A DNA stretch of 64,000 nucleotides from Azolla caroliniana (Eukaryota; Plantae; Polypodiophyta). Position numbers and translations under genes: made by a program. This document shows positions 12,066 through 59,700 of the stretch, in pieces (position 1 is the stretch's first letter; every line of letters begins with the position of its first letter). A model generated the notes under the pieces. It saw only the letters and a program-made list of their open reading frames with translations, had not been told where the DNA came from and did not search any database. Location: the NCBI GenBank assembly GCA_043228905.1, contig JBHGNT010000017.1, positions 12,710,001-12,774,000 on the forward strand, read 5' to 3'.

Positions 12066-12069
12066 TATT

Positions 12070-12088: not shown

Positions 12089-12108
12089 AGGCGGCAGAGG
12101 AGTAGAAG

Positions 12109-18830: not shown

Positions 18831-18906
18831 AAGCAAGGATTGGTTTTCTCCCGTAGGAACCCAATTTTGGCGCATACCGGTGGATGCGCGGTTAGGTGGG
18901 GGCGGA

Positions 18907-35049: not shown

Positions 35050-37154
35050 ATGAAAGGGTCGGATCTTGCGGAGGCCATCGCTTCGGCCGTGGATCGGATA
35101 CTGAGCGCACGCGAGGGCTCCGACGCCCTCGACAGAGCCATTGAGGCGGTCGTCGGTACGATCGGCCGGTTCAGCGGAAAGGATGCCACGAAGTATTTGG
35201 CGTCCTACGGGGCGGAAATGCTGATGCGGGACATTCCGGAAGAGAGGCGTCTTGCCGGGTTTCCTCGAGTGGCGATGCCGAGCATCCATGCGGAGGTGCT
35301 CGAGGTGCAGACGGAGAGACGTACCTGGGAGGAGTTCGAAGGCCGACTCCTAGAAAAATACAGGCTGGACGACGCACTCCAGCTTTCGAAATGGGACTTC
35401 ATGGAATGGGTGGAGTCCCCCGGCAAGGGAAGAAACGCGACGGCACTCCTCCGGGAGTTCGAAGAACGCTTTGCGCGCCTTTCGGCGCTTGACCGAACCG
35501 TTCTGGATACGAGCCGAGTCCTACTGTTCGTCAAGTCGGTGGACGAGCGGGACCGGGACCAAGTCGGCTCCTTGTTGGAAACCGAGGACGGGCTGACAAC
35601 CGACTGGGCTGCGGTTAAGAGAGTCTGTGGCCGTTTCGATAAACGGCGAGAATGGGCTGACAACGGGGCGGCCGGTCCGGGCTCTGTCACATCAAGGAGG
35701 CTTGAACCGGCACCGCAAGTGCGAAGGGAAGAAACCCGGGAATGGCTCGAAACCGGTCCGGCTTCGACCGGCATGGTCAATGGCTCGTCCGGAGGAGCAA
35801 CGCTGGAGGAGTTGACGCGGGCGATAAAGGATCTCCAGATCGCCCAGACTCGAAGGGAAGGCGGCGAGCTGGCTCGTGACCGACGGCCGGCAACGGGGAA
35901 CAGGCGCATGTGGTGCGACGAGGTTGGCCACATTCGGAAGGACTACGGCGATTTTGCAGAGGCGTTGAGGAACCGGGTGGTGTACCTGTGGGAAGGCCGG
36001 GTGCACGCCGGCGACACCAGGAGGGCCCTGAACCGAAACGACGGGCGAGGAGGAATGAAAAGACTGATGGAAGAGGCAGCGGCCCGACACGTGGAGGCCA
36101 TCCACTACTCGGCATCGGCTGGCATTCGGGTCAGGGGCAGCGAGGCCCGAAAGGAGGGCAAAGACGGATTTTGGTCGGCAATGCTGGAAGGTCTTGCCGG
36201 CGCACGGCTAAAGAAAGATGAAACGGACCGCGCTGAGAGACGGGTCCGGGAAATAACCGGCTGGAGCGATCCAGTTGAGGAGAAGACGGGCTTTGTAGAA
36301 GCCGCCTGCCGGAACTACGAGGCTCTGGTTGAAGACAAACGGGTGGGGAAAGCCGGATTCGGGCAATGACGGTACGAGACCCGATTCGGGCAATGACGGA
36401 ACGATGCCGGTGGGTCCAGCCCGCAAGATAACCCCAGGAAGGGCGGATACCGACTGGGGACGGAAATAGAAAGGACTACGGACCTACGAAAGGTCCTAGA
36501 AGAACGGATCCTCGACAGCAAAGTGGAGCTGTCATTGCGAGAGGTGCTAGGGATCGCCAAGAAGGAGTTCCACAACTCCATTGTGGACCTGGTGAAACGG
36601 AAGAGGCTGTCGACGGAGACGGAACCGGAAAGACCGATGGAGGTGCGGACGACGCACATCGACGACATGGCGATGGAAGACGAGTGGGCGGAGAGCCACT
36701 ATTCGAGGCCACACTGGGCCCGAGCGACCACGGAGACCCCGGTAAAGATCGGAGATGTTCAGGAACCGGTGGTGGCATTGGTGGACCACGGTTCGGAAAT
36801 AAACCTGATGTCCATGGACTTCTATAAGAAGGGGAAGTGGCCGATCAACACCAAGCACGGGTGGAAGATACGGGCGGCGACGCGCGCCACCGAGGAACTG
36901 CATGGGGCCTGCCCGAACGTGCGAGTCAAGATCGGCGACGTCGAGATTGACCAGCACTTCTTCGTACAGGAGACGTCCTCGCACCCGGTCATATTACGGC
37001 GGCGCGAATGGAGACCAAGGTGCTCGACAATGGTTTGGCCTACGCGAGGGTCAAAAGCCAGGACGGGTGCCATTCGGTGCAATTTCTGACGGTGTGGCCG
37101 AACCACGAGAGAAACCGCGAATCCCTCGGTGGCGAGAACCGGGAGGATTTTTAG
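35050..37154 (+). pseudogene. gag: gag-protease ORF of D (in-frame TGAs at 36367 and 36394, 16-nt deletion near 36993); natural end ...REDF-TAG
   Basis: ORFs 35023-36369 and 36523-37089 share a frame. LVDHGSEINLMS protease motif. Aligns to element C. Confidence 0.9.
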
Positions 37155-37211
37155 AGAGGGCTGCCAAGGCGTGGGGCCGAGACAGCCCGGACACTCGGAA
37201 AGGACCCCACG
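37145..37211 (+). promoter_or_regulatory. Putative -1 frameshift site G_GAT_TTT_TAG followed by an H-type pseudoknot
   Basis: Stem 1 GGGCTGCC 37158-37165 / GACAGCCC 37181-37188; stem 2 CGTGGGG 37170-37176 / CCCCACG 37205-37211. pol is in the -1 frame. Confidence 0.75.
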
Positions 37212-40200
37212 ACTGTACGATAGGTAGAAAAATTTGCTTCTCCAACAACGGAGGGTGTATGATAGTCGGCATCGTCGGCCGAGAAAAGACAAGGGCGGAT
37301 GTGCGACTTCGAGCGTGCGGAGTTCTCGGCCCGGACGAGGAAATCAGCGGAGCCGTGGAGCCGGTCTCCTTCGACGACACCTTGGGAATGCTGAGGAAGG
37401 TAGCCGGAGAAGACCTTAACGAAGACCGGACGATACCGGTATGTTCTGAAGAGATGTACGAAGTCATCGAGAACTTCATTCGGGGGCTTGGGTCGGATCG
37501 GACGGCCCGAGTTAGCACGAGGTACAAGGCTGTGGACCGGAAGGTAAGGCCAGTCGCGGCACCCTTGCCGGAGGGTAGCGAGTCCCGAATCAAAGGGGTG
37601 GTATCGGACCCCAGTTTACGAGATCCGGCCTACATAGGACACACCTTCACCGACGGAACGCTCCGGGAGCTCAAAATCGGTGGGGGCGAGTTCCTACTGC
37701 CGGCGGAGGAAGACCGGTTTCGGAGAATGCTCGGAAGGCACGGGAAAGCATTCGCATTCTCACCGGAAGAGATCGGGTGCGTAGACCCGACGATCGTGGA
37801 GCCGATGGTGATATTCACGGTACCGCATGTACCGTGGAATCTCAAGCCGATTCCAGTACCGAGAGCTCACATCCCGAAGTTGCTGGAGCTATTGAGGCAG
37901 AAAGTCGATATGGGTATTCTCGAACCGTCGAGCGCGCCATACTCGAACCGATGGTTTACCGTACCAAAGAAAAACGGAACATTGCGCTTCATTCAGGACC
38001 TGCAACCGGTCAACAGAGTGACCATCCGGAACGCAGGAATCGGACCGACCGTAGACGAGTTCGCTGAGGCCTTCGCCGGAAGGTCGATTTACTCGGTCAG
38101 TGATCTGTACTCGGGGTATGACCAGTTCCAACTAGCCGTGGAGAGCAGAGACATTACGACGATGCGAACTCCCCTCGGCCTAGTGCGAATGTGTACCCTG
38201 CCACAAGGAGGGACCAACTCGGTGGCCCACATGGTGAATGCAATGAACAAAGTACTGAGGGATTGCATCCCGGACATCACCATGCCATTTCTAGACGACA
38301 TCCCTATCAAGGGGTGCCCGGTGGAAGAGAAGGACGAGACACTCGGGCCGGACGGATGCCGGCGATTCGTAGCAACACACATCGACGACTACGAGAAGGT
38401 GCTACAAAGGCTAGAGGATGCGAGGCTCACCTTCTCCGGGGAGAAATCGGCCTTCGGGCAATCAGAAATCCTGGTGGTCGGGCACCTATGTGGACCATAT
38501 GGCCGGAAGCCGTCTCCGGCAAAGGTAGAAGCCATCTCTGCGATGAAGACCGACTGTAGCTCGGTTACGGAAGTTCGGAGGTTCCTGGGGGCATGCACAT
38601 TCTACCACATATGGATCCCGCATTACACCCACGTTGCGGAACCGCTATACGGGTTGCTGAAGAAGGGGCGAAAATTCAAGTGGCGAGACGAGCACATGGA
38701 GTCGGTCCGGAAGCTGAAGGAAGCTCTTGCGGCAGCACCGACGCTCCGAAAGGCTGTCTACGAGAAAGGTACCCCGGTATACATAACGGTGGATACGAGT
38801 CCAACCGGGATCGGATGGGTCGTCAACCAAGAAAACAAGGACGGCATTCGGTTCCCGATCCGATTCGGCGCAAAGGTCCTCAGTGAGCGACAGCGAGGGT
38901 ACGCCCAGGTTAAATGCGAACTCTGGGGTATCGTTTCGGCAGTAAAGGCCGACAAAGACTACCTGATCGGGACAGAAGTGATTATCGAGACGGATTGCCT
39001 GCCGATTCTCGGCATGGTTTCCGGATGCGCGACACCGGACCTGGCGATGCTCAGGTGGATAGCGTACATCAAGTCCCTGGACCCGGAGATACGACACATT
39101 TCCGGAAAAGCCAACGCCATGGCCGACATGCTTTCGAGGGCGAGGTTTGATGAAGAGGGCGGCATGGTTTCTGAGGACGAAGAAGTCGGCGTGGACTTCT
39201 TCGAGGCGGCGTACGTGACGACCGATGGGGCGAGCACTCCGGCACTTAACGGCTTCGACGAGAGCAAGTACGACGGCGAGTGGCTGCAGATCGGTGGGTT
39301 TCTGAGGACAATGACGTCGGATGCGTCATGGACGAGGGACAAGGCCAACCGGATCCGGAAGAAAGCATACCGATTCTTCCTCCGGGACGGACACTTATGG
39401 AAGCACCCAAAGAAGAGGAACGGCGTCCCGCTCCAGGTGGTGGCGATGAAGGAAGAACAGGAGGAGCTGCTGACGGCCTACCACGACAGCCCTTGGGTTG
39501 GACACCGTGGAACGTGGGCCACGTTCGAGAAGATAAAGGGGAAGTACTGGTGGCCGGGACTGTACCGGGACGTGCATCGGTTCGTGACGACTTCCGAGAG
39601 CTGTCAGATGCACTCCATAGTCCGACATCGGGACGAGCTTCACCCTACGTACCCTCTAACCATCCACTTCAAATGGATGGTAGATCTGGTGACGATGCCG
39701 ATGGGAGAAGGACAGATGCGGTATCTGGTCCTGGCTCAGGAAGATCTGATGAACCAGGTAGAAGGCCGAGCCCTTCAGAACAAGACGACCGCAGCCGTAT
39801 GTCGGTTCCTAATCGAGGACATGATATGCCGGTACGGGTGCGTCGGGAAGATCGTGGCTGATCGCGGGGAGTTGGACGCCGAAGAGGCCGAGGAGTTGTT
39901 CGATCGGCTAGGAGTCAAGCTCTCGCTTACCACTGCGTATAATCCGGAGGCGAATGGGAAGGTGGAGCGCGGACACGGACCGATCGTCAAAGCGTTAGTT
40001 CGGGCATGCGGAGGTCGAGTCGGGAACTGGCCACGGCTGCTGCCTTACGCGTTGTGGGCGGACCGAACTACGCACAGTTTGGTAACCGGATTCATGCTGG
40101 CAGAGCTCATGTTTGGGAAAAAGCCGATCATGCCGATAGAACGTACGATCTCCTCATGGGCAACCGTGGACTGGAGAGACAAGATGAGCCGGGAGGAACT

Positions 40201-40582
40201 GTTGGCGGCGCGCATACGACAGCTCGAGCGAAGACCGGAGGACGTGGAGCAGGCCGCGGGAAAGATTCGGGTGGCAAGGACGAGGAACAAAGCCCGGTTC
40301 GACCGAATGCATCGGCTCCGACCGAAGAAGTTCGAGGAAGGCGACTGGGTGCTAGTCTATGACAGCAGCCTCGACAACCAGCACCGAGCGACATGGAAGT
40401 TCGCAAGAAGGTGGTTCGGGCCTTACGTGGTACAAAGCGCCAACGACAACGGGACGTACCATCTGGCGGAACTTGACGGCACGAGAATGGCGACACCGGT
40501 AACTGGGAAGCGGATCAAAGCGTTCAAGAAGCGTCACGACGACGAGCCGGATCCAGTTAACCTGAACCGCGACGACGAATGA
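37145..40582 (+). CDS. pol: Pol polyprotein (RT-RNase H-integrase), uninterrupted; probably entered by frameshift
   Basis: Part of ORF 36902-40582: PFLDD, ITVDTSPTG, YHDSPWVGHRG, WMVDLV, VADRGE, YNPEANGKVERGH, WFGPY. Confidence 0.93.
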   Translation, partial: GFLERAAKAWGRDSPDTRKGPHDCTIGRKICFSNNGGCMIVGIVGREKTRADVRLRACGVLGPDEEISGAVEPVSFDDTLGMLRKVAGEDLNEDRTIPVCSEEMYEVIENFIRGLGSDRTARVSTRYKAVDRKVRPVAAPLPEGSESRIKGVVSDPSLRDPAYIGHTFTDGTLRELKIGGGEFLLPAEEDRFRRMLGRHGKAFAFSPEEIGCVDPTIVEPMVIFTVPHVPWNLKPIPVPRAHIPKLLELLRQKVDMGILEPSSAPYSNRWFTVPKKNGTLRFIQDLQPVNRVTIRNAGIGPTVDEFAEAFAGRSIYSVSDLYSGYDQFQLAVESRDITTMRTPLGLVRMCTLPQGGTNSVAHMVNAMNKVLRDCIPDITMPFLDDIPIKGCPVEEKDETLGPDGCRRFVATHIDDYEKVLQRLEDARLTFSGEKSAFGQSEILVVGHLCGPYGRKPSPAKVEAISAMKTDCSSVTEVRRFLGACTFYHIWIPHYTHVAEPLYGLLKKGRKFKWRDEHMESVRKLKEALAAAPTLRKAVYEKGTPVYITVDTSPTGIGWVVNQENKDGIRFPIRFGAKVLSERQRGYAQVKCELWGIVSAVKADKDYLIGTEVIIETDCLPILGMVSGCATPDLAMLRWIAYIKSLDPEIRHISGKANAMADMLSRARFDEEGGMVSEDEEVGVDFFEAAYVTTDGASTPALNGFDESKYDGEWLQIGGFLRTMTSDASWTRDKANRIRKKAYRFFLRDGHLWKHPKKRNGVPLQVVAMKEEQEELLTAYHDSPWVGHRGTWATFEKIKGKYWWPGLYRDVHRFVTTSESCQMHSIVRHRDELHPTYPLTIHFKWMVDLVTMPMGEGQMRYLVLAQEDLMNQVEGRALQNKTTAAVCRFLIEDMICRYGCVGKIVADRGELDAEEAEELFDRLGVKLSLTTAYNPEANGKVERGHGPIVKALVRACGGRVGNWPRLLPYALWADRTTHSLVTGFMLAELMFGKKPIMPIERTISSWATVDWRDKMSREELLAARIRQLERRPEDVEQAAGKIRVARTRNKARFDRMHRLRPKKFEEGDWVLVYDSSLDNQHRATWKFARRWFGPYVVQSANDNGTYHLAELDGTRMATPVTGKRIKAFKKRHDDEPDPVNLNRDDE

Positions 40583-43500
40583 TCCGAAACCGAGGAAGAA
40601 CCGACGGGCGGAGAATGAAGGTTGGACCGGTTTTTCTCCGTCCCAACACAATCTGGCGCATGCCGGTGGATGTGCGGTTAGGTGGGGGCGGATGTCGTGA
40701 AGAAAACCGTCCACAAGCAGAATCGGTGCACCGGAGCGTAGGAACCGGCTCTTCATGCACGTGCACCTTATGTTGTGCATAGGAGATCCTAGGCAGGCAG
40801 ATTCGGTAGGTAGGAAGTAAAGGGGAAACGGCTCCTTCCTTGCCTATAAAAGGAGGGAGACGAGGAGGGGCGAAGGGATCGCGGAGAGTCGAGGACGAAT
40901 TGCTGTCGGTTTGTGTGCCAAGGCTTCTCTCTCTCTCTGGTTCGCAAACTCCATAGCTTCCTTCTGTGCAGGTTTCGGGAGGCTCGCGTTGCTCTGAGGA
41001 ATGCCCGAGTGCTTCCGACAGCACCTCCAACCTACTCCTTCCTTTCTGTGCGTTTACGAACAGGTATCGGCATCTGTTCGCCGGCCTGTTCGGTTGTAAC
41101 CGACTTCGTGTTTTGTTGTTTGTCTTTGTTAATGCACACATACATTCGTGTCTCTCTGTGTCGCTGTCCCACTCACTTCTTTGTGTCGAAGGGCCGTGTC
41201 CCTGTGAATCTACTCTCCCACGTAGTGGGTCTCTTCTCCTCTCTCTCTTGTTCTTCAGTGCAGGACCCCCGAGGTCCCGCCTCATTCCACGCATCCGCGA
41301 GGAATACCTCGACAGCGTTCTAGTGCTCTTTTCCGGGATTGTTCATGAACCGACTCACCACTCCGATTGCAGATCTAATATTTGGCCAAGTGCACACCAT
41401 TCAATACATTAGACTTCCGACTACAAAGGAATATGGAATCTTCATCATATCCATCTTCTCTACCTTTGCCTTTGGGATTGGCTTTCCAGATAGCTTGCAG
41501 TTTGGAGGGAGTGTCGATCCGACATGTTGAACCATTGAAGCAGCTTTATCACGTACTTCTCCTATGACATCCACAACAACTTCTTCGACCGGTCCCAGAT
41601 GATGTGCATCCCCTAAACCTGTCTTGCTGGACCCCAGTCTTTCATTGAGAAGGTCCGGTTTAGGGCCTTACTCAGCATGTGTATCTTGACTTGGTCTCAT
41701 CTGACGATCAACATGTCGTCAACGTCCAGAAACAATATCAGGAAATCTCCTCCGTCAAATTTCTTCACAAACACACAATGATCAGCTTGCGTCTTGTGGT
41801 ACCCTTGATCCATCATGAAGGAGTCGAACTTCCAGTACCATTGCTAGGGGGCTTGCTTCAAGCCGTATAAGCTCTTCTTCAGTCGGCACACTAGTTGTTC
41901 CTTCCCTTTCTTCTCAAATCCTTCCGGTTGATGCATTTAGATCTCTTCTTCGAGGTCACCATGTAGGAATGTCGTCTTGACGTCCAATTGCTCTGCCTTG
42001 AGTTCCATGCTTGCCGCTATGCTCAATACCCTCCGGATGGATGTCATCTTTACTACCGGGGCAAAGATCTCATCGAAATCCACACCTTTCTTTTGTTAGA
42101 AACCCTTCACCAAGATTCGGGCCTTGTACCTCGGTGGATTTCCGGCATATACCGGTTTCAGCTTGTACACCCACTTATTCCAGAGTGCTCTCTTTCCTTT
42201 CAATAGCTCTGTCAATTCATATGTGTGGTTCTCATGCAGGGAATCCATCTCGTCCTGCATGACACTTAACCACTTGTAGGTGTGGGTGTCTTTCTTTGCT
42301 TCTTCGAAGCTTTCCGGCTCCCCCTCATCGGTCAGCAATTCGTGCTCTGCATCTGGAAATCTCCAGGGGCTCTTCTCTCTCTAAGAGGGTATCTTCATCC
42401 TTGGTTTTCAGAAACCAGTTCATCTATTTGTTCCAAATCCGAATCTGTTTCAGGGTCTTGTCCGGTTCTAGTTTCAGCTTCCCCTTCTTCTTCTTTGATC
42501 GGTTCAGTTTCTACTCCGAATCCGGCCAGTTCTTCGAGTGTCATCCGGCTTCCGGCCGGAATGGTCCTCAGCTCCTTCAGTTGATCTTTGCCTGTCGACC
42601 CAGAATTCATTATCCTTTTCTCAGACTCCCTGTCGACAATGGTCTTGTCCTCCATGAAGATATCGCCGTATCCAAGGAATATGCATGGTGTGGACTTCGG
42701 ATCTAGCTTTTCTCTCTTGTCCTTTGCAACATGTGAGACACCCGAACACCTTCAGATGCCAGTAAGACACATGTTTACCGGTCCATACTCTCTGTGGTGT
42801 GTCTCCGTCCAAGGGTGTTGAGGGTGATTTGTTTATCACATACGTCGTCGTCATCAGTGCCTTAGTCCAAAACGTCTTGGGTAGCTTTACATGTGCCAGC
42901 ATGCTCCGGACTCTCTCCATCACGATCTGGTTCATCCGTTCGGCCAGCTCATTTTGTTCCGGCGTCTTCGGCATAGTGAATTCGAGTTAGATTCCCTTCG
43001 ATCAACATTACTCCTCGAACTGCCCCCGGTACTCTCCTTCGATATCTGCTCGAACAGCCTTCAGCTTCCGACCGGTTTCTCTTTCCACTCTCGCATGGAG
43101 TTCCTTGAAGATAGACAACACCTGATCCTTCGTCTTCAACGGTGAGACCCACAACTTTCGGCTATGGTCATCTATGAACATCACGAAGTACTGCCATCTG
43201 GCATGTCACGTCATGTCCACTTGACACACATCGGTATGCACTAGCTCCAGTGGTGCATTCCGTCTCCTCGGTGGTCTTGATTGGAAGGAGGTTCGGTTTT
43301 GTTTGGCGGCCAAGAAATCGGTGCACTTCTCAAGATGCACGTCTTTCACCTCCGGAATGAGGTTGTCTTCAGCAAGTCTTCTCATCCGCTTTTGGCTCAT
43401 ATGACAAAACCTTTTGTGCCACAGCTCACCGGTAGTGTCGGATGCTACATTCACTTCTTCCCGGCATATCCGAGCATGCATCAAATACAATGTCTTGATC

Positions 43501-45321
43501 TTCCGGGCTCGAGCCACAATCAGGCTTCCTTTGCTGAATTTCATGACTCCGTTCTGGATGCTACCCATGTAGCCTTGATCATCTAGCCGACCAGTTGATA
43601 TCAGGTTCAACCAAACCTCCGGAACGTGTGGGACTTCTTTCAGCAGTAATTAGCATACGGTTGATGTCGTCAACAACACATCTCCTATGCCCACAATTCG
43701 GCATGTACCTTCATTCCCCATACAAACACAACCGTGATCTCCGGCTATGTAAGTTGAGAAGCATTTCTGGTCCGGTGTCAAATGGAACGACGCTCCAGAA
43801 TCGAAAACCCAGGTCGTCTCGTTGCTGACAAGGTTGAGCTTGCTCTCCTCAACAATGAGCATCAGTTCTTCTTCACTTGTCACGATCGCCAACATTCCTT
43901 TTCTCTCCGAACCTTTCCGGTCCGAACCCTTCTTCGAATCGGCACTGTCGGTTTCTTTCTCTTTCCGGAAATGCCCAAAGTTCTTTTGGAAGTGCCCTGG
44001 CTTCCCATAGTAGAAGCAAGTAGGCCCCCCCTTGACTTCGACCTCGTCCCCGATTTGTCCTAGTTTTGGGGACTCCGATACCATCCTCTTCCCTGGTTAT
44101 GGTCATCTCCCGTGACCAAGGGCTTCGGATCGGTTCCGGACTCCCGGTCCTTTCGGCGAGCTTCTTCATCTAGCATGCTTGATATTACTCTTGCTAGGGA
44201 CAACTACTTTCCTTCCGGCCCAGCATTGCCCAAAGTGACAACTAACGTCTCCCAACTATCCAGGAGGGAACCAAGCAAGAGCAATGCAAGTACCTCTTCA
44301 GCTAGAGGTACTTCAAATGAAGTTGTTTGATTTATGAGCCCCTGAAATGCATTCACGTGCTTCACCATGCTAGATCCGTCCTGGTACCTGAGTCTCACTA
44401 ACTTCCGGAATACCGAAACTTGATTTACGGCATTTTTACTCTCCAACATGGTGCCGATTTTCTCCCAGAGCACATGAGCTTTACTTTCTTCATTGAAGTT
44501 GTTGTACAGGCTCATGTCAATGAAGCACCAGATGTACATCGTTGTCTTCATGTGCATCACCTCCCATGTTGCGGCATCAATCTTATCTGGTTTCTTGTCC
44601 ATGAACTGTACCGGCAACCAGAGATCTTTGACCATAATCATGTCCCTCATCTTCGACTTCCACTCTGGGTAGTTGGAGTTAGTGATTTTCAACATGCCGC
44701 CGAATGATTCTTCCATTTCCTTTGTTTGCTCTGATACCATATTTTGCAAAAATAACGCTCGGCCACAACCGAGTCTTCAACAAGGAATAGAGGAGAACAA
44801 ACTCAAATCGAGATGACATAGGATGTTAACGTGGAAAACCCTAAATAGGGAAAAACCATGAGAACCCACAGACTCCAAACTATCACTATATGCGAGAGGT
44901 ACAATCAGAGACCTGGAGGCAATGACCTCGAGCTCTATATCTTCACTAGCCGGCGGTTACAACAAAAACTAGTTCTGTATCTCTCTCTCTCACTCGCTCT
45001 CTATATACAACGATATACAACAACTCTAATTACTACACTCAAGTGATTGCCCTGACTCATATTTATACGTATATGACTTTAGGGCTATTTACAAATATAG
45101 CCTCGATGGGCTCACCATGAAACATATTTACACATATGTTCTTGGATCCGGTTTGCACCGGATCCATTCAGATTCACTTGATCCGGTTTCCGGGTCTCAT
45201 CCGAAACCCTTCCGGATCTGGTTCCTTCATCCGGCTTGTCCGGTTCTCATAAGGAACCCTTCCGGATCCGGTTCCTCTGGTTCTCATCTGGATCCCATCC
45301 GGAGGGACCGAATTCCCAACA

Positions 45322-45551
45322 ATCGACTACATCGAGACTCCGTCATTGTGGTGGGTCAACACTTGTAGCCTGTGCGCCGGCACCAGGTATGACTCGACAC
45401 CATGACGGTCGGTCATATGGGACGTCAATCGAGGCTCGAGTCCATCTCGATCCCTTCGCTCGGGTGGATCGGCACCCTTCTTTCTCTCTCTCCTTTCTTA
45501 TTAATCAATTATATCTTTATCATATGCTTACTTTAGATCATAGCTCTAACA
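45322..45551 (+). repeat. 3' part of an LTR (ends CTCTAACA), interrupted by element F
   Basis: Reverse complement of 45663-45900. Confidence 0.8.
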
Positions 45552-47338: not shown

Positions 47339-49971
47339 AGTATAAATATAACTAGGGCAAAAATATTACACGTTGTTGTCTTTGAAAAGTGCTATTGTAA
47401 CTGACAGAGAGGGAGGGAGGGAGAGAGAGAGATTCAGAGATAGAGAACATGGTTGTTGCCCTATTTATTGTCTCCGGAGTGTATACCTCCTGTTACTATA
47501 GTGATTATGTTGGGAGTCTGCGAACTCCCATGGTTTTTCCCATTTAGGGTTTCCACGTTAACATCTTTTGTCGTTTTGCCTCTAAGTGAGTGTATGTGTG
47601 AAATATTCTGATTTTCTATCTTGTGCTTGAACCTCATTGTGGTCGAGGCCCATTCTCTATCAAACTAGTATCAAAACGAAGGCTCATTACCTTCAAGCAA
47701 AAGAAAATGGAAAACTCATTCGGCAGAATGTTCAAATTAATCGGCGCCAACTATTTTGTGTGCAAAGACTTATGGTTGCCAATGCAATATGGCAAAACTA
47801 GGCCTGATGAGATTGATGCATTGACTTTGGAAGTGTTGCATCTGAAGGCGACTGCATACATAAGATGCTTTATAGACATGAGTCTATACAACAACTTTGA
47901 TGAAGAGACGGATGTTGACGTCCTTTGGAAGAAGATTGGCATAATGTTTGAGAACAAGAACGTCGTAAACAAGGTCTCAATTTTAAGGAAGATCATGAGA
48001 CTCCAGTATCAAGATGGCATAGCGGAGCATGTGAATGCTTTCCCAGGACTAATCAACCAAACCACTTCTTTGGAGGTACCTCTAGCCCACGAGTTACTCA
48101 CATTACTATTGTTGGGATCTCTTCTGGATAGTTGGGAGACGCTCGTTGTCACATTAGGCAACACCAGACCAGAAGGGAAGCACTTATCCTTGGACAAGGT
48201 GAGGTCAAGATTGCTTAACAAAAAAGCTCTTCCTAAGGACAGAGAAGCAACCTCTGACCCAAAGGCCTTAGTCATGGAGGGTGACATGAATCGAGGAAGA
48301 GGCCGGAATAGAAGTCCCCAGAATCAGGAGAAGTCTGGGACTAGGTCGAAGTCAAGGGGGAGGCCCACATGCTTCTATTATGGGAAATCAAGGCACTTCT
48401 AGAAGAATTTCCGACAGTAAAGGAAAGAGAAAGGGGTAGCAGATGGTGTTCAACAGAAGAAGATTCCAGACAATAAGAATACCTCTGCAATCACCACAAG
48501 TGAGGAGGAGTTGTTATTCATCTGTGAGCAAAGCAAGCTGAATCTTGTCGGTGATGAATCGACATGGGTGGTTGATTTGGGTGCATCATTTCATCTTACT
48601 CCTGACAAAGGATGCTTCTCATCGTACACAACCAATGATCACGGATATGTGAAGATGGGAAATGACGGCGCATGGAAATTAGTCGAAATCGGGGAAGTGT
48701 ATCTGTAGACATCAACAAGTTGTAGAATGGTGTTGAAGGATGTGCACCATGTTTTAGACATCAGATTGAATCTGATATCGACCGGATGGCTTGATGATGA
48801 AGGTTACAGTGGTACCTTCCAGAATGGCACCTGGAAATTCTACAAAGGAAATCTTATTGTGGCCCGTGCCCAAAAGCAAAGTACTCTATACATGATGCAT
48901 GCATGAGTGAACCGGAATGAGGTGAATGTGGCAGGTGACACAGCCCATGAGTTGTGGCATAAGAGGCATGCCACATGAGCCAGAAGGGGATGTAAATGAT
49001 AGCCGAAAAGTAGCTCATACTAGAGGTAAAGAAAGTGCATCTAGACTAATGCCTCGATTGCCTGGCCGGAAAGCAAAATAAGGCAGTTTTTAAGATTGCT
49101 TAAAGTATGAGGCACTTCATCGGGGGTTGTTTGGGGTGGACTCAAGTTTAGATCTTATTTGTATGTCTAAACCTAAGTAGTGATATAGTTTTAAGGGAAT
49201 AGAAAAGCAAGGGCATGGGTGGGGGGGCTAGGGGAGTGTAGCTTGTTTAAGATATCAAAAGTATTTAAACCTAATCAAAGTTTTTAGAACATATTAAAGA
49301 TCATTGGGATAACTTAAGTTTTTAAACACCAATAGAGTATTATTAAAACATCAATGTAGAGTATTATTAAAATGGGACCACACGCTTAGATGAAAGGGAG
49401 TTGTTTAAACACATGCTTAAACAAACATTTAAAAGAAAGATTATTATAAATAAATAAATAAGAGAGATTGGGATTAAAAATGATTATGGTTAAGAAGGGA
49501 TTATGATTAAGGGGGAAGGGGTTGCTAAAACAAAGTACTTAAACGAATGTTTAAACAAATACTTAGATAAAAAAACTCTTGGGCAAACACTTAAAGAAGG
49601 TTATGATTAAAAGAGAAGGCAGGGATTATGATTAAAGAAAAGGGGTCATGGCTAAGAAGAGGATGATTATGATTAAGAGAGGAGAATACTTCAACAATTG
49701 TTTAAACAAAAAGTTAGACCAAAAAAAAGATTGAACAAGTATTTAAAAAAAGGGGTTAAACAAGTACGTAATAAAAATGATTATTAAACAAGTACTTAAT
49801 AAAAAATGATTAAATAAATACTTAAAAACTTAAGACAAAAAAATTGACAAAAAAGTGATTAAACAAGTACTTAATAAAAATTGATTAAATAAGTACTTAA
49901 GAACTTAAGACAAAAAAATAGATAAGAGCAACACATAGAAGGAACGAAAGTTTTACTATCATAAGGCAACG

Positions 49972-50017
49972 ATCGGCAAATACATTTCGCCTCGATGGAG
50001 GCTCTTCAGTGCTCGAT
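49972..50017 (-). ncRNA. Minimal type I hammerhead ribozyme
   Basis: ATCGAGCA-CTGAAGA-GCCTC(CATC)GAGGC-GAA-ATGTAT-T-TGCCGAT: CUGANGA and GAAA core, 5-bp stem II, quasi-palindromic stem III, 7-bp stem I with one bulge. Confidence 0.8.
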
Positions 50018-50078
50018 GTACAAATGATGAAAACTAAGCTTACTAGGTTGCTCTTTTTATAGGGAGAGGGAGGAGAGA

Positions 50079-50617
50079 CCCTTGTATGTGGGATATACAA
50101 AAGTGTGTACAAAGGGAAGGTAAAAGAGTGTACACAAGACTTTAGGTGGGGGTTAAGAGGGGTGAGAGTACTCAAAATTTTAGGTGGGGGGGAATAGGAG
50201 TGAGAGTACTCAAAACTTTAGGTGGGGGGAAAGGATGACTGTACTAGGTGGTTTCTTAGTTTTTTACCATTTAGCCAACATGTAGGGAACTATATTGTGG
50301 TTGTCCCTTGTATGTGGGACATACAAAAGTGTGTACAAAGGGAAGGTAAAAGAGTGTACACAAGACTTTAGGTGGGGGTTAAGAGGGGTGAGAGTACTCA
50401 AAACTTTAGGTGGGGGGAAATAGGGGTGAGAGTACTCAAAACTTTAGGTGGGGGGAAATAGGGGTGAGAGTACTCAAAACTTTAGGTGGGGGGAAATAGG
50501 GGTGAGAGTACTCAAAACTTTAGGTGGGGGGAAAGGATGACTGTACTAGGTGGTTTCTTAGTTTTTTACCATTTAGCCAACACGTGAGAGGGGGTGTAAG
50601 GGAACTATATTGTGGTT
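50079..50617. repeat. Partial tandem duplication (50079-50302 vs 50305-50617) containing a 38-bp G-rich tandem array
   Basis: GAGAGTACTCAAAACTTTAGGTGGGGGGAAATAGGGGT units start at 50390, 50428, 50466 and 50504. Confidence 0.9.
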
Positions 50618-50920
50618 ATCCTAGGAGAGGTTTAAGTTTGTTTCTCACGAGCGCTCCGATTTGGAGTTTTTTGATACATGGGGAGTAACGAAGCTTAAAA
50701 ACAACGGTGGAGGTTTTTTGTTGTTGGGTTGGTTAGAGAGTAGTTGGTTTCGTATAGACTAGGGGACGGTCGAAAAACACTTGAGTAGGAACTTCGACGG
50801 GTAGCCCCTAGCTCTTAGTCGGTCGTAGAACTTTTTGCGTAGTTCCTTGTAGCCATTTTCCGAGCTCTCTCGGATAGCATACCGTTTTAGTTCTCCCGTG
50901 ATGAAACCCTTTTTGTGTGC
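50520..50920 (-). pseudogene. PLE reverse transcriptase C-terminal region (stops, one frameshift), ending ...NGKKLRNHLVQSSFPPT-stop
   Basis: Manual translation continued beyond ORF 50759-50965. Confidence 0.7.
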
Positions 50921-51154
50921 TATGGCAAAGTCACATGCTAGTGCACAATATTTTGTGACCTTCATAGATGACTACAAAAGGAAATTATGGGTCTCCACAT
51001 TGAAGACAAAGGACCAAGTGAAGAGTGGAAAGAGAATCTGGACAAAAGCGGAAGGCTATCCGGACGGACAATGGAGGGGAGTACAGAGGGCAGTTTGAGG
51101 AATACAGTCGAACCCAAGGAATTCAGCTGGAAAACACTTCACCGAAGACTTGAG

Positions 51155-54100
51155 GGAATCGGACCGACCATAGACGAGTTCGCGGAGGCCTTCGCCGGAA
51201 GGTAGATTTACTCGGTCGGTGATCTGTACTCGGGGTATGACCAGTTCCGACTAGCCGTGGAGAGCAAAGACATTACGACGATGCGAACTCCCCTCGGCCT
51301 AGTGCGAATGTGTACCCTGCCACAAGGAGGGACCAACTCGGTGGCCCACATGGTAAATGCAATGAACAAGGTACTGAGGGATTGCATCCCGGACATCACC
51401 ATACCATTTCTAGACGACATCCCGATCAAGGGGTGCCTGGTGGAAGAGAAGGACGAGACACTCGGGCCGGACGGATGCCGGCGATTCGTGGCAACACACA
51501 TCGACGACTGCGAGAAGGTGCTACAAAGGCTAGAGGTTGCGAGGCTCACCTTCTCCGGGGAGAAATCGGCCTTCGGGCAATCAGAAATCCTGGTGGTCGG
51601 ACACCTATGCGGACCATATGGCCGGAAGCCGTCTCCGGCAAAAGTAGAAGCCATCTCCGCGATGAAGACCGACTGTAGCTCGGTTACGGAAGTTCGGAGG
51701 TTCCTGGGGGCGTGCGCATTCTACCACATATGGATCCCGCATTACGCCCACGTTGCGGAGCCGCTATACGGGTTGCTGAAGAAAGGGAGAAAATTCGAGT
51801 GGCGAGACGAGCACACGGAGTCGGTCCGGAAGCTGAAGGAAGCTCTTGCGGCAACACCGGCGCTCCGGAAGGCTGTCTACGAGAAGGGTACCCCGGTATA
51901 CATAACGGTGGATACGAGTCCGACCGGGATCGGATGGGTCGTCAACCAAGAAGACGAGGACGGCATTCGGTTCCCGATCCGATTCGGCACGAAGGTCCTC
52001 AGTGAGCGACAACGAGGGTACGCCCAGGTTAAACGCGAACTCTGGGGTATCGTTTCGGCAGTAAAGGCCGACAAAGACTACCTGATCGGGAAAGAAGTGA
52101 TTATCGAGACGGATTGCCTCCCGGTTCTCGGCATGGTTTCCGGATGCGTGACACCGGACCTGGCGATGCTCAGGTGGGTAGCATATATCAAGTCCCTGGA
52201 CCCGGAAATACGACACATTTCCGGAAAGGACAACGCCATGGCCGACATGCTTTCGAGGGCGAGGTTTGATGACGAGGGTGGCATGGTTTTGGAGGATGAA
52301 GAAGTCGGCATGGACTTTTTCAAGGCAGCGTACGTGACGACCGATGGGACGAGCACTCCGGCGCTTAACGGCTTCGACGAGAGCAAGTATGACGGCGAGT
52401 GGCTCCAGATCGGTGGTTTCTTAAGGACAATGACATCGGATGCGTCGTGGACGAGGGACGAGGCCAACCGGATCCAGAAGAAAGCATACCGATTCTTTCT
52501 CTGGGACGGATACTTATGGAAGTACCCGAAGAAGAGGAACGACGTCCCGCTCCGGGTGGTGGCGATGAAGGAAGAACGGGAGGAGCTGCTGACGGCCTAC
52601 CACGACAGCGCTTGGGCTGGACACCGTGGAACGTGGGCCACGTTCGAGAAGATAAAGGGGAAGTACTGGTGGCCGGGACTGTACCGGGACGTGCATCGGT
52701 TCGTGACAACTTGCGAGAGCTGTCAGATGCACTCCATAGTCCGACATCGGGATGAGCTTCACCCTATGTACCCTCCGACCATCCACTTCAAATGGATGGT
52801 AGATCTGGTGACGATGTCGATGGGGGTAGGACAGATGCGGTATCTGGTCCTGGCTCGGGAAGATCTGACGAACCAGGTGGAAGGCCAAGCCCTTCAGAAC
52901 AAAACGACCGCGGCCGTATGTCGGTTCCTGATCGAGGACGTGATATGCCGGTACGGGTGCGTCGGGAAGATCGTGGCTGATCGCGGGGAGTTGGATGCCG
53001 AAGAGGCCGAGGAGTTGTTCGACCGGCTAGGAGTCAAGCTCTCACTTACCACTGCGTACAATCCGGAGGCGAATGGGAAGGTGGAGCGCGGACACAGACC
53101 GATCGTCAAGGCATTAGTTCGGGCATGCGGAGGTCAAGTCGGGAACTGGCCGCGGCTGTTGCCTTACGCGTTGTGGGCGGACGGAACTACGCACAGTTCG
53201 GTAACCGGATTCATGCCGGCAGAGCTCATGTTTGGGCAGAAGCCGATCATGCTGATGGAACGTACGATCTCCTCATGGGCAACCGTGGACTGGAAAGACG
53301 AGATGAGCCGGGAGGAACTGTTGGCGGCGCGCATACGACAGCTCGAGCGAAGACCGGAGGACGTGGAGTAGGCTGCGGGAAAGCTTCGGGTGGCAAGGAC
53401 GAGGAACAAAGCCCAGTTCGACCGGACGCACTGGCTCCGACCAAAGAAGATCGAGGAAGGCGACTGGGTGCTAGTCTACGACAGCAGCCTCGTCAACCAG
53501 CACCGAGTGACACGGAAGTTCGCAAGAAGGTGGTTCGGGCCTTACGTGGTACAAAGCGCCAACGACAACGGGACGTACCACCTGGCGGAGCTCGACGGCA
53601 CGAGAATGGCGATACCGGTAGCTGGGAAGCGGATCAAAGCGTTCAAGAAGCGTCACGACGACGAGCCGGATCCGGTTAACCTGGACCACGACGACGAACG
53701 ATCCGAAACCGAGGAAGAACCGACGGGCGGGGAATGAAGGCTGGACCGGTTTTCTCTGTCCCAACTCAATTTGGCGCATGCCGGTGGATGCGCGGTTAGG
53801 CGGGGGCGGATGTCGTGAAGAAAACCGTCCACAAGCGGAATCTGTGCACCGGAGCGTAGGAACCGGCTCTTCATGCACGTGCGTCTTATGTAGTACATAG
53901 AAGATCCTAGGTAGGTAGATCCGGTAGGTACTTAATGGGAAACGGCTCCTTTCTTGCCTATAAAAGGAGGGAGACGAGGAGGAGTGAGGGATCGCGGTGA
54001 GAGAGGACGAAGTGCTGTCGGGTTGTGGGCCGAAGGCTTCTCTCTCTTCCATACTCCGTAGCTTCTTTCTGCACAAGGTTTCGGGAGGCTCGCGCTGCTC

Positions 54101-54430
54101 TGAGGAATGCCCAAGTGCTTCCGGCAGCACCTCCAACCTACTCCTTTCTTTTTGAGCGTTTACGAACAGGCATCGGCATCTGTTCGCTGGCCTGTTCGGT
54201 TGTGACCAACTTCGTGCTTCTTGTTGTTTGTCCTTGTTAATATATATATACATACATTCGTGTCTCTCTGCGTCGTGTCCCACTCGCGTCTTTGTGTCGA
54301 AGGGCCGTGTCCCTGTGAATCTACGCCCACTCGTAGTGGGTCCCTTCCCTTCTCCTTTGTCTCTTGCTCTTCGGTACAAGACCCCCGAGGCCCCGCCTCA
54401 TTCCATGCATCCGCGAGGAATACCTCGACA
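51155..54430 (+). mobile_element. pol: Element E: 5'-truncated copy of the D family (pol 51155-53737 with TAGs at 51202 and 53369; 3' LTR 53811-54430)
   Basis: Near-identical to 38036-41314. LTR TGTCG...CGACA is followed by GCGT. Confidence 0.95.
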
Positions 54431-56362
54431 GCGTGAATCGAGAATAAACATCCGACCCTCTCTTCGTCCACGTGCGATGAGTCAGCCCTCTTTTTCGATG
54501 AAGCAACCGCCTTGATTAAATCGAACTTGCATCCCTTGCTCTACAATTTGGCCGACGGAGACCAAATTCTTCGTAATGGCCGATACATGCAAGACATTTT
54601 TAATGTAATTTTGCTTACCTTCTTTTCCGAACAGAACATTGCCAATGTGCCGAATCGGGTGCGTAGTGTCGTCTCCGGTTTCGACATAGCCGGGTCGGTC
54701 CGGCTCTCGAAGTTCTTAGAACCATTCTTGATGCGATGTCATATGGTTTGAGGTACCGGAATCGACGAACCATACGTCTTCCGGGTGTGTTGAGGTAGCG
54801 GCTGACAGATTTTGCTCTATGTTTCATCATGAACATTCCGCCATTGTCGGAGTTGTGCGCATACATTCCGCCATGATCTTCGTACTCGGAGTTGTGCCCG
54901 TACATTTCACCACGGTAGGAGTTGTGTGCATACATTCTGCCATGATCTTCGTAGTCGGATTTGTGTGCGTAATTCGTGAGTTGTCGGCTTGTGGAAGCCG
55001 ATTCACGCATCTTCTTTCAGCACTCTTCTTTGTGGTGGCCGAGCTTTCCGCAATATCCGCATTTGGTTGCGTTTTGACGGCTCGGGCTAGAGTGGAAGCT
55101 CCCCCTTCTTGCGAAGGTTCCTCATTGGCCTCCGTTTTGCAGCCGAAATTGGGAGTTGTTGTCATAGGTCGGACCTTGTTCGCCTTGTACTTGGCCGAAT
55201 CGGCCTCTCGCTCGTCCGCGTCCTCTTCCTCCATTAGAGTGCGTGTAGAGCATGTGGCCTTCCAACTCATTGCTCCTTGTACGCACGTGGTTTTCTTCGA
55301 CCAATAGCATTGATTGGAGCTCGATAAAGGAGGGAGATTTCTCCCGTGCTAGGCCGCCGAGGCATATTTGCACCATCTCATCATCATCTATACTTACGCT
55401 TATTGAGCCGAGCAAGTCGCAAAGTTCCTTGATCTTCAAGGTGTATGTCGTGATGGACATGTCCCTTTGTTGAATGTTGTTCAACTCTTGGCATAGTTGA
55501 AGCTTCCTCGTGGTCGTGTTGGCGGCGAAAATCTTTCGTAGATTTTCCCACGCTTCCTTTAGCGTCTTGGCTTCTCGAATGTAACCGAGCATGTGGTCTT
55601 GAACACATGTCGCCATACAATACATCACGCAGCTTGCGGTTTGCTTCCATGTCGCGTATCTGGGAGCTGCTTTGGCGGGTTGATCTTCATGCGCTCCTTT
55701 GATGTAGCTCCAATAGCCTTGTCCGACAAGGTATTGGTGCATCTTGTACTCCCAAGATGTGAAGTTGTTTCGATCCAACTTCTCGGTAGGGAGAGCGCTC
55801 CCCATTTGAGTATTCATTATGTTGATTCTTCTTCTTCTTCTTCTTCTCTCTTCGAATGCGAGCTATGTAGCGAAGCTACGATAGCTATGAGCCGGTTCTT
55901 GGTCGTCGGCGTGGAGCACAACACACGAGCTCGATGAGGCAAATGGGCTAGATCGAGCTACCAAATTACTCTGATACCATGTTAAGAATCAAGAGATGGA
56001 TTCTTGTGAAGCGGAATAGGTGTGAACTGTGTGTGTATGAGAGAGAGAGAGAGAGAGAGTGAGTGAAACACAGAGAATACGCAAGGTAAAAGTATATTGA
56101 CAAAGGAGAAAGACTCAACATTGTACAAGGAGGGAGGAGGGTGCTTTATATAGTCACCCTCTCTCTTCATTAACTACATGACTCATGAAGAGTGGGGAAT
56201 GTTAAAGCTCATAAGTTATGTGTCATAGAATATGATTCTATGACTCATACTAAATGTTAGAATACAAAGTGGTGATTTAATGGTGACTCTTGACCGTTGG
56301 AGTGTCTATTCACTCTCAAGGTGAGTTCACACACTAGACCAAGTTGAGCTTGATTCTCAACA
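54431..56362 (-). mobile_element. Ty1/copia of the H-like family: 5' LTR 56362-55980, PBS 55979-55968, gag-protease remnant
   Basis: EKLDRNNFTSWEYKMHQYL; TGGTATCAGAGT; TGTTGAGAATC...TTAACA termini. Confidence 0.88.
54835..54980 (-). repeat. 30/39-bp coding repeats (HNS.YEDHGGMYA) in the copia gag-PR linker
   Basis: GGAGTTGTG..CATACATTC recurs four times. Confidence 0.7.
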
Positions 56363-56799: not shown

Positions 56800-59700
56800 A
56801 GCTTATTTTACCGGTCTGATAAAATCGAGCCTCAGCAGCTTGTCGATTTCTTCTTTGACTCTCACTGCATAATTCGGGTTCATCTGGTACCTCCATTGCA
56901 TTATCGGTTTCGCGTCCTTGTTGAGTTGAATTTGATTGTGGTATAGTTGGGGATCCAACCCTCGCATAACTTCTTATGACCAGGCGAACACGTCTTGAAA
57001 TTCTTTGAGCTCTATTGTTGCTTTCTTTTCCTCCGAGAGCAATTCCTTTGCCACGTACACCGCTTTTGGTGCATCCTCAGTCCCAAGGTCCACCTCTTCT
57101 AGTTGAGATGCCTTCACTTGTTGAGATACCGCCATTTCTCGTTCCAACGATTCTTGTGCTTGTCGTAGTTCACGGATCGCCTCCCAATTTGGCTCCTCAT
57201 GGACTTCCTCTGAGTGCATGACGTACGGTGTGACGGCTTCGACAATATCTACTTCAAATAACGGAACTATCTTTGGGTGTTCATCTAGGTAGCGGTCGAC
57301 TTCGTCGTCTGTTGATCCATCCAACATGTTTATGCTCTTTGCATATAATGGTGGTAGCTCCTTACTGGTACCCACACGTGGGTGGGTCGAGACCCGTACC
57401 TTCATCTTTCCTCTGTAGAAGGTAATTACTAATGATGTTCCTCTGCCTATTTTGCTTTATATGTGTTGTCCTTAGCCATGGTCTCCCTAACAACAGGGGA
57501 TACGCTCCCTGTGCATTGAGTTGCAAGACTACCACAGATATCATGAAATCATGCCCACCAATTGTAATCTCCAAGTTCCGGATGAGTCCGGTTGGCCGAA
57601 CCCAACTGATATCTGCCATACGCAGCCAGAACGGCCATGGTTCCCATTCTCTGATACCTACGTTGTCGCAGGTTCGTTGGCTTATCACGTTTACTCTAGA
57701 ACATAGAGACTTTGTGCTTCAATGTATGAATACCCCTTCTTAGGAAGGAGACATATATCAAAAACACATGTATACTCTGGTCCCATAGGTCAAAATTGGC
57801 CTCTTTATGGACGATAGAAATTCCAATTCTAATTCTGATTCCGGTTATTTCTTTTCCTTTAATGATAGCTATTATTGTTGGATTACTGGTGTCCACTATT
57901 GCCGATGTCGCGAAAATACGACGAGGATACGTGAACGTTGAGGCAGGACCCCGGGGCCTTTGATTAGAGGATATCAGATTTGTGTATTTATGTACTAAGA
58001 ATTAACCGAAATGAGAAAGATTAACAAATTTCATTAACAAGTAGAAAGAAAGATTACAATCAATCCCAAGATTGGGATTACAAAAGTTTTATCTTAAGGA
58101 GATTGCTAGAATAATAGATTAGAAGAAACTAAGATATGGATTCCATGGAGATTTAGGGTTCTTGGCTTTCATAAGAGATTATGGTTATATGAGTATTACG
58201 GCTTCCGTAGGGAAGATTAACGTTTTTGAGTGTTATGGCTTCTGTAGGGAAGATTAGGGTTTACTTAAGAGATATGGCTTCGATAAGATAAGGGAGCTCC
58301 AAAGGAAAAGAAAAACAATATAATATGGAGAGTCCCAATATAGGAAAAAAATAGAATATATATGGTGTTCCCCGTTGATCATATGCATGTCTACTTTTTG
58401 TTGCATGGCCTCTACTTTTAGTTGCATAGCTTCTTCTTTTAGTTGCATGGCTTTTTCTTTTTGTTGCATGCGACCGTCCACATGACCTTTACTTTTTGCA
58501 TGCACTCCAACTTTAGTTGCTTGCGTCCACATGGCCTTTACTTTAGTTCTCTTCACTTTACTTTAGTTTGTTGCATGATCCAATCTTCCGTCCGTCTGCA
58601 TCCAACCTCGTCCGGTAGCCGGTTCCGCTCGATCACCGAATCCCTCGCCGACCGGTTCCGTTTTGCTTGCCGGCCGGTTCCGGTTCTGGTTTTGCTTGCC
58701 AGTTCCGGTTCCGGTTTTGCTTGCCGGCCGGTTCCAGTTTTGCATACAGGCCGGTTTCCGGTTTACATACCAGTTCCGGTTCCAGTTTTGCTTACCGGCC
58801 GGTTCCGGTTTGCTTGCCGGTACCGGTTCCAGTTTTGCATACCGGCCAGTTTCCGATTTGCATACCAGTTCCGGTTTTGCTTGCCGGCCAGTTCCGGTTC
58901 TGGTTTTGCTTACCGGCCAGTTTCCGATTTGCATATCGACCGGTTTCCGGATTTGCTTACCGGCCGGTTTCCGGTTTTAGGGAATTTGGCCACCATCATC
59001 CATCAAGACAAAGTGGCCAAAGTGCTCTTAGCACAAATGAATAATGAGGGAGCTCAAGGTGCTTATATAGCCAGGGCCTTAACTTTCCTATCTATGTGGG
59101 ATAGTTCTAATTTCCCTATCTTCTCAAACTTTATTTTGACATAACTTGATATGTATTTCTCCATTTTGTATATAGTAAAATACATTTTGAAGCTCTTGAG
59201 TATATCCATCTTTCTATAGTAAGATACTAATTTAATCTATAATAATTATTTCATTATTTTTTTACATAGTGTGTGAAGATTCACACGACACCGGTCCTTC
59301 CTTTGGGTTGGAAAAGAAGGCCGGTGTTGGCTCCAGGTTTTTTAGCCCTATCACCGATTGGAGTCATTCTGTAAATCAAGGGACTAACTGTAATACACGA
59401 CCTAGTGGTAGCATGATGTGACATTCTTGTAACGCTTGATAGGTTGAGTCATCATCTGTGGTTTCTATTAGTGTTCCCGAAGGTTTGAGCTGTCGTCGCA
59501 GCTCGACCGTGTTTCATTCATTGGCTTTCTCTATCCATTCGGTAGCCTGCTTTCAGATGGCCTCTTGAGTCTCCCACTCGGTAGTTTTCCCTTTAGCTCT
59601 TGTGGTGACTTGTTGAACGTCGGTCACCTCTACGGTTACCATATTCACCACCAACTGCTTTTCGTTGGTCTTGCTCGGGTAATGACTACTATAATGTCCT

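What the first reader, a model, noticed from the sequence alone, without database searches (positions are those of the whole stretch)
49972..50017. Minimal hammerhead ribozyme with a self-complementary stem III
Seen (minus strand): AUCGAGCA CUGAAGA GCCUC-CAUC-GAGGC GAA AUGUAU U/UGCCGAU. The core is complete, stem II is perfect, and stem I has 7 bp with a bulged A. The predicted cleavage triplet is AUU. Stem III AUGUAU is too short to fold as a monomer but pairs with itself in trans (4 Watson-Crick + 2 GU). Known: PLE pseudo-LTRs carry minimal type I hammerheads thought to cleave as dimers. Inference: this processes the element's transcript, and it independently supports the PLE call.
Basis: partly seen in the sequence, partly recalled or inferred. 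Interest (0 to 1): 0.7.

Follow-up and report, generated by a model that had tools for sequence, protein, structure and literature searches.

The report
Jumping-gene copies start at ribozyme cut
This is a slightly decayed copy of a predicted self-cutting RNA motif in a plant jumping gene that lacks a DNA-cutting enzyme; a few percent of related copies begin exactly at the predicted cut, which likely records the ribozyme cutting in living cells, and their insertion scars suggest they likely patch chromosome breaks.

Summary
The motif is real (chance under 0.01 per 64 kb). It lies 3' of the reverse transcriptase of a 5'-truncated, dead copy (49087-50925, minus) of an endonuclease-less, two-ORF Penelope-like element with about 60 copies in this genome. 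The family's stem III is the perfect palindrome AUGCAU (53 of 58 copies). Five other families (RT 41-45% identical) keep the core, with compensatory palindromes (ACUAGU, ACAUGU) and a TATA word just upstream. Six of 199 copies in four families start within 2 nt of the predicted cut (0.7 expected among 15 nearby ends, P about 4e-5): likely a genomic record of cleavage. Four more start at +5 to +8, and most copies read through the motif. Copies are dispersed, with target deletions, 130-660-nt duplications and telomeric filler, suggesting insertion at DNA breaks. No cleavage or expression was measured. Hammerheads in plant PLEs are published; the scan noted this element type in this genome, and cut-site starts in animal PLEs, before.

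The parts
49087..50925 (-). 5'-truncated copy of an endonuclease-less Penelope-like element (family A; positions about 3733-5244 of the 5245-nt unit)
50520..50925 (-). Remnant of the RT thumb and C-terminus (ITGELKRYAIRESS...LRARGYP...WLNGKKLRNHLV), with premature stops and a frameshift
50079..50534 (-). Internal duplication of the RT end and 3' UTR, with several 38-nt repeats
   Evidence: (D7)
50053..50061 (-). TATA word, 52 nt before the core; a TATA word lies 36-39 nt before the core in the other families. Promoter role inferred; predicted start near 50028
   Evidence: copy L071 starts at the matching base
49972..50017 (-). Type I hammerhead motif; substitutions against close copies at 50013 (G to A) and 49982 (C to T)
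49980..49985 (-). Stem III segment AUGUAU (family AUGCAU, perfect palindrome)
49978..49979 (-). Predicted cleavage between U17 (49979) and 49978; related copies start here
49122..49971 (-). AT-rich non-coding tail of the pseudo-LTR
49087..49121 (-). 3'-terminal hairpin-like segment and A-run: the shared 3' end of family copies, inferred site of internal RT initiation
50926..51150 (-). Upstream flank: host copia-like retrotransposon, target of the insertion
   Evidence: (I12, I17)
48501..49086 (-). Downstream flank: same copia-like element, resuming after about 75-78 missing target bases

Best explanation
The motif is a decayed copy of a type I hammerhead in the pseudo-LTR of an endonuclease-less Penelope-like retroelement, and in intact family members it likely cuts the element's RNA as a dimer, some 50 nt after a predicted transcription start. 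Shown: motif, family, two-ORF layout without GIY-YIG, covarying palindromic stem III, a TATA word before the motif in six families, fixed 3' ends downstream of the motif, excess 5' ends at the predicted cut, and dispersed insertions with target deletions, long duplications and telomeric filler. Inferred: (1) transcription starts about 30 nt after the TATA word; (2) two motifs pair through stem III (two in one tandem transcript, or in trans, perhaps helped by the element's protein) and cut after U17; (3) RT, made by -1 frameshift from ORF1, starts at a fixed internal site at the tail-head junction, primed by a broken DNA end with a few bases of microhomology; (4) it runs off at the cut end in a few percent of events, and otherwise copies uncut RNA or crosses a rejoined or jumped junction, which regenerates the promoter and makes tandems; (5) host break repair joins the 5' end. 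The window copy read through the motif, then mutated, and is likely inactive.
For: Motif beyond chance. Family of about 60 copies. RT with DKN and YIDD, no GIY-YIG motif or Pfam match; closest named relatives Selaginella 41% and Cryptomeria 41-47%. Across 10 motifs from six families all 96 of 96 cells pair, 4 pairs change on both sides (2 in stem III); slid controls pair 26-45%. Stem III is AUGCAU, ACUAGU or ACAUGU, self-duplex -4.6 to -4.8 kcal/mol. 5' ends at 0 and +2 (family A, L065, L056), 0, 0, -2 (G, L174, L224, L228) and 0 (C, L203): 6 of 15 ends between -100 and +2 versus 0.73 expected, P=4.5e-5; families E, G, C alone, examined after the idea arose, 4 of 10, P=9e-4; any-window scan P about 1e-3. 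Empty-site relatives fix the junction at 0 for L203 and 0/+1 for L224. Two long copies start at or beside the cut and span a whole unit to the next motif (L254, 5243 nt; L255, 4717 nt). No family G copy starts at +4 to +15 and no family A copy at +3 to +48, where a stall at the foot of stem I would end. 33 of 51 3' ends continue into the unit's head by at least one base. A slippery heptamer plus hairpin opens the RT frame in 6 of 6 families.
Against: No cleavage was measured. Only 6 of 199 copies start at the cut, so most templates were uncut or precisely rejoined. In family E the nearby ends lie at 0 to +4 (ambiguous), +5 and three at about +8, inside stem I, which a structure-induced stop explains as well. 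The ends were curated by hand: gapped BLAST moved L203 to -14 and L233/L234 to -25; I kept L203 at 0 on the empty-site relative, and counted L233/L234 once at -25. The uniform null is simple. U17 is in every family and is, from recall, the slowest of the allowed cleavage triplets. 18 of 58 family A copies have a changed core, explained as post-insertion decay but not tested. In the anole element the ribozyme was dispensable for insertion in vitro and no RNA reads ended at the cut (PMC11167929, passages read). The covariation shuffle ignores relatedness.
Confidence: 0.72

Rival explanations
1. The motif folds but rarely or never cuts in vivo; it is a binding or folding signal, and copies end near it because RT stalls in stem I or at the stem III dimer.
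For: Family E ends at +5 and about +8 lie within stem I; one G copy ends at -10, the foot of stem II. About 95% of copies read through. U17 everywhere. Low in vitro activity of many PLE hammerheads (PMC4209133, parts 1-2 of 4 read) and dispensability in vitro (PMC11167929).
Against: The catalytic boxes are invariant apart from position 7 across families with RTs only 41-45% identical. Ends in A, C and G keep the whole 3' strand of stem I and stop at 0 plus or minus 2, not at the stem's entry; none were found there.
Confidence: 0.18
2. The window copy's AUGUAU form is itself a working dimer (4 WC + 2 GU).
For: Core and stem II are intact and all six positions can formally pair; the TATA word is present.
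Against: Unique among 58 copies, a C-to-T change; predicted self-duplex +0.6 kcal/mol, and the two-copy fold does not form stem III. The copy has one motif only.
Confidence: 0.15
3. The motif is a parasite of the element (retrozyme-like passenger) that cuts but gives the element no benefit.
For: Raised in PMC8557442 (passage read): PLE clades without hammerheads proliferate well. Short tail-only copies starting at the cut exist (L065, L056, L174, L224, L228).
Against: Kept at the same place behind a TATA word in six deep families; no tandem arrays of the pseudo-LTR alone were seen among the loci fetched, while whole ORF-bearing units form tandems.
Confidence: 0.1

Closest known systems
Endonuclease-less PLEs of Selaginella moellendorffii and conifers (Coprina group) with type I hammerheads (PMC4209133 parts 1-2 of 4; PMC8557442 passages and section 9; PMC9033089 passages)
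   Same: RT without GIY-YIG, upstream ORF1 with frameshift, hammerhead in the pseudo-LTR, 5' truncation, partial tandems; RT 41% identical to a Selaginella protein.
   Different: Described as generally restricted to chromosome ends and primed on telomeric overhangs. Here 0 of 53 copies on contigs over 12 Mb lie within 100 kb of an end (median 6.1 Mb), the 3' end is an A-run plus head bases rather than telomeric repeats, and it lies about 905 nt past the cut. The primary papers (PMC1890498, PMC5850863, PMC4860704) were not held, so details there may bear on this.
PLE-X families of Chara and Selaginella (EN-lacking Chlamys; PMC8557442 section 9)
   Same: No endonuclease, canonical hammerhead, genome-wide in Chara; how they insert is left open there.
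   Different: They carry the CxC motif (and Chlamys the IFD); these RTs have no CxC and a 59-residue A-B spacing, and have a separate ORF1.
Poseidon element PAc of Anolis (PMC11167929, passages read)
   Same: Internal initiation of reverse transcription past the pLTR junction; hammerhead in the pLTR, shown there to be protein-assisted.
   Different: PAc has a GIY-YIG endonuclease, and no RNA ends at the cut were found; here genomic copies start at the cut.
Canonical short-helix-III type I hammerheads and metazoan min-HHRs (PMC4209133)
   Same: Core boxes, G10.1-C11.1 pair, palindromic 15.1-16.1 segment, predicted dimer.
   Different: No extra unpaired base before stem II and a 4-5-bp stem II, unlike min-HHRs; U17 in all families.

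Membership tests
Type I hammerhead ribozyme (dimer type) | Core CUGANGA ... GAAA ... UH | tested here: met
Type I hammerhead ribozyme (dimer type) | Stems I and II supported by covariation | tested here: met
   Stem II 2 pairs change on both sides; proximal stem I invariant; distal stem I differs in sequence but folds in each family, not counted by column
Type I hammerhead ribozyme (dimer type) | Short palindromic stem III | tested here: met
   Family AUGCAU 53 of 58; ACUAGU 69 of 71 in C and G, ACAUGU 32 of 33 in E. Window copy only with G-U pairs
Type I hammerhead ribozyme (dimer type) | Self-cleavage after H17 as a dimer | not testable with these tools
   Indirect only: excess 5' ends at the site
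Type I hammerhead ribozyme (dimer type) | Match to an Rfam hammerhead model | tested here: not met
   no hammerhead family at E<=10
Metazoan min-HHR (Cervera and de la Pena 2014) | Unpaired base between A9 and G10.1, long helix II, no helix III segment | tested here: not met
   G10.1 follows A9 directly, stem II 4-5 bp, 6-nt stem III segment
EN-minus PLE, Coprina-like | PLE-type RT (DK motif, YIDD, thumb) | tested here: met
EN-minus PLE, Coprina-like | No GIY-YIG endonuclease at either end | tested here: met
   RT frame ends after the thumb; no Pfam match in ORF1 or ORF2 at cut-off; no motif match. No fold search was run on ORF1
EN-minus PLE, Coprina-like | ORF1 joined by frameshift | tested here: met
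   A AAA AAC plus hairpin at the start of the RT frame in 6 of 6 families; pseudoknot not tested
EN-minus PLE, Coprina-like | Pseudo-LTRs, tandems, 5' truncation, inverted 5' pieces | tested here: met
EN-minus PLE, Coprina-like | Telomeric location and C-rich telomeric repeats beside the hammerhead as priming site | tested here: not met
   Family A: 0 of 53 within 100 kb of a large-contig end; CCCTAAA words lie at unit 235-242, not at the 3' end. Whether contig ends are telomeres was not checked
EN-minus PLE, Coprina-like | Placement in the Coprina clade with reference sequences | tested here: inconclusive
   Tree groups the six families with Selaginella and gymnosperm RTs apart from Closterium (100/99), but it had no labelled Coprina, Athena or Neptune references
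Naiad/Chlamys (including PLE-X) | CxC motif and insertion in fingers | tested here: not met
   No CxC in 6 of 6 RT frames; A-B spacing 59
Non-LTR retrozyme | Short non-coding tandem unit with one hammerhead each | tested here: not met
   Units are 4.7-6.1 kb and code for ORF1 and RT

The most novel reading that the evidence does not exclude
Endonuclease-less plant PLEs spread genome-wide as RNA-templated patches of DNA breaks, using a hammerhead-cut (possibly circularised) unit RNA with a fixed internal start; the genome records both steps, as copies that begin at the cut and as junctions with 130-660-nt duplications, deletions and telomerase-like filler.
Probability: 0.45. Interest if true: 0.75.

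Novelty: new variant of a known kind. Interest (0 to 1): 0.55.

Why it matters
Two points are called open in the papers read: what PLE hammerheads do in vivo (PMC8557442: still unclear; PMC11167929: no RNA ends at the cut) and how PLEs without an endonuclease insert away from telomeres (PMC8557442). This genome holds young, intact, tandem families whose copies bear on both and give exact predictions: the cut base, the start base, the initiation site and a matched pair of natural stem III variants. The motif at the given coordinates is itself an ordinary decayed copy.

Tried and rejected
Rfam found no hammerhead. Expression: no RNA holder listed; contigs of two coded runs gave only 85-95% alike pieces or nothing and no joints or ends, uninformative. 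Pfam gave nothing at cut-off for ORF1 or ORF2. Covariation within family A: none, only unpaired decay-type changes, so I turned to other families. The A-run as a poly(A) tail: rejected, it is about 6 A and runs on into head bases. The cut as the 3' end of the element: rejected. Naiad/Chlamys and retrozyme membership: rejected. One search was partly lost to a script fault and repeated. Dropped or moved rows in the end count: L155 (0 to +4 by microhomology, dropped), L219 and L220 (downstream of the sampled zone), L233/L234 (counted once at -25), L165, L192, L242 and the -14, -27, -52 rows (internal indels or another subfamily, not ends); 7 of 56 family C hits (tandem or duplicated contigs) were not fetched; families B and D were not surveyed for ends. 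Three primary papers were not held. Literature searches for cut-site starts or fern and bryophyte EN-minus PLEs listed no such report; subscription papers and supplements were not seen.

Full report
Observation. A loose descriptor finds this one site in the window, against 0.01 per shuffled window. Rfam has no hammerhead match.

Context. Upstream lies a broken RT thumb. A search with 201 nt around the motif gave 40 scored matches at 94-100%; exact and near-exact patterns gave 33 cores, 61 3' ends and 60 segments just past the cut, with zero control matches. The longest natural copies define a 5245-nt unit: head, ORF1 (655 aa), RT frame (779 aa from stop to stop), 170 nt, motif (cut after unit base 4340), 905-nt AT-rich tail, A-run. 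There is no GIY-YIG match or motif and no CxC. Named relatives are from Selaginella (41%), Cryptomeria (41-47%) and Closterium; the tree joins them with the first two, without labelled clade references. The host is therefore a land plant by inference; an earlier scan note calls it a fern, which I did not test. The window copy covers unit 3733-5244, has an internal duplication and sits in a copia-like element with about 75-78 target bases missing.

The family motif. 53 of 58 copies have stem III AUGCAU; AUGUAU is found only here, and the bulged A replaces G. Predicted self-duplex is -4.7 against +0.6 kcal/mol. 40 of 58 keep the core; the rest carry unpaired changes, mostly at G and C.

Other families. 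A relative's RT found 71 scored places of 604 candidates. Fetched loci show five more families, RT 41-45% identical, each with a hammerhead 250-800 nt after RT; three form perfect tandems of 6124, 5567 and 4673 nt. Stem III is ACUAGU or ACAUGU. On ten motifs 96 of 96 cells pair and four pairs change on both sides, two of them in the palindrome; slid controls give 26-45%. A 6-nt segment can close only one pair within a monomer, so selection on the palindrome points to dimers, the model of PMC4209133. All have U17. A TATA word lies 36-52 nt before the core in every family, putting the motif at the very start of the predicted transcript; one family A copy starts 33 nt after it. A slippery heptamer and hairpin open the RT frame in all six.

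Does it cut? I mapped 5' ends of copies that keep the bases just past the cut: 60 in A, 41 in G, 49 of 56 in C, 49 in E. Six start within 2 nt of the cut: two in A, three in G, one in C. Of 15 independent ends between -100 and +2, 0.73 are expected there (P=4.5e-5); E, G and C alone give 4 of 10 (P=9e-4); any 5-nt window reaches six in 201 of 200000 simulations. L254 starts exactly at the cut, confirmed by an empty-site relative, and runs 5243 nt to the next motif; L255 does the same within 4 nt. A stall at the foot of stem I would end at +8 to +14; A has no end at +3 to +48 and G none at +4 to +15. Against this, family E has ends at +5 and three at about +8 (one at an inversion), found partly after the statistic was computed, which fit trimming of a cut end or a stall equally. 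The calls on junctions were manual, and 188 of 199 copies do not start between -2 and +8.

3' ends and insertion. Family A copies end at one A-run, and 33 of 51 continue 1-4 bases into the unit's head, so the template spans or is primed at the tail-head junction, like the internal initiation of PMC11167929. Full-length copies carry upstream tail pieces of 163, 325 and 970 nt. Of 29 copies with an informative relative, 11 show duplications of 130-664 nt, 4 are within 15 nt of flush and 14 lack 11 to about 1000 target bases; the large deletions rest on single distant relatives and some duplications lie in host repeats. Telomeric repeats fill the 5' junction in 3 of 56 copies against 1 of 8667 background windows, in both orientations, and in two copies of other families. 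None of 53 copies lies within 100 kb of a large-contig end. These are the marks expected of insertion at existing breaks (inference from established knowledge of endonuclease-independent retrotransposition, recalled).

Mechanism. Transcription from the pseudo-LTR, dimer cleavage about 50 nt in, internal priming by a broken end, run-off at the cut or passage across an uncut, rejoined or jumped junction, then host repair. Whether the template is a circle cannot be told from DNA alone.

Comparison. Hammerheads in plant EN-minus PLEs are published (PMC4209133). What differs is the dispersed distribution of a Coprina-like element, the non-telomeric initiation site and copies starting at the cut. 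Seven searches of the held library listed no report of these, but three primary papers were unavailable. The scan's earlier notes report this element type in this genome, and cut-site starts in some animal PLEs but not others.

Verdict. Real motif, correct class, decayed copy; a new variant of a known kind whose family gives testable evidence on two open questions. Interest 0.55.

Noticed in passing
L087 (C20:5793273-5793744) and L092: A family A copy switches for 472 nt to the tail of a sister subfamily, ending in a variant of the same terminal hairpin, then resumes family A: a likely template switch. L092 is a sister-subfamily tandem with a decayed motif.
   Followed up: partly
L058, L067, L069: Three copies with different 5' ends run through the junction to unit base 1041 and share the same downstream flank; second initiation site, or new copies landing on an old duplicated fragment.
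   Followed up: partly
L081 (family A) and L255 (family E); L031 and L035: Independent copies, in one case from two families, have nearly the same downstream flank in a host repeat, hinting at insertion hot spots.
   Followed up: no
L093, L094, L095, L096, L122: Near-identical head-to-tail arrays of whole units with open ORFs (up to five units at C22:8.95-8.97 Mb); young and the best material for assays.
   Followed up: partly
L165: One U is missing in the UUU run at the predicted cut; could be an imprecise rejoining or an ordinary slip.
   Followed up: no
P0001: A 99% identical RT lies on a 5327-nt public contig, close to one unit length, as a collapsed tandem or circle would assemble.
   Followed up: no
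window 11000-20000, 34300-41400, 51150-54400: Three related gypsy-like retrotransposon copies, 80-96% alike, one with a 1257-aa open pol frame.
   Followed up: no
window 25300-27200, 42300-45400, 47600-48700, 55100-55900: Several copia-like remnants on both strands.
   Followed up: no
window 24375-24653, 29106-29337, 58580-59270: Arrays of a 22-24-nt degenerate repeat within a larger dispersed repeat, in both orientations.
   Followed up: no
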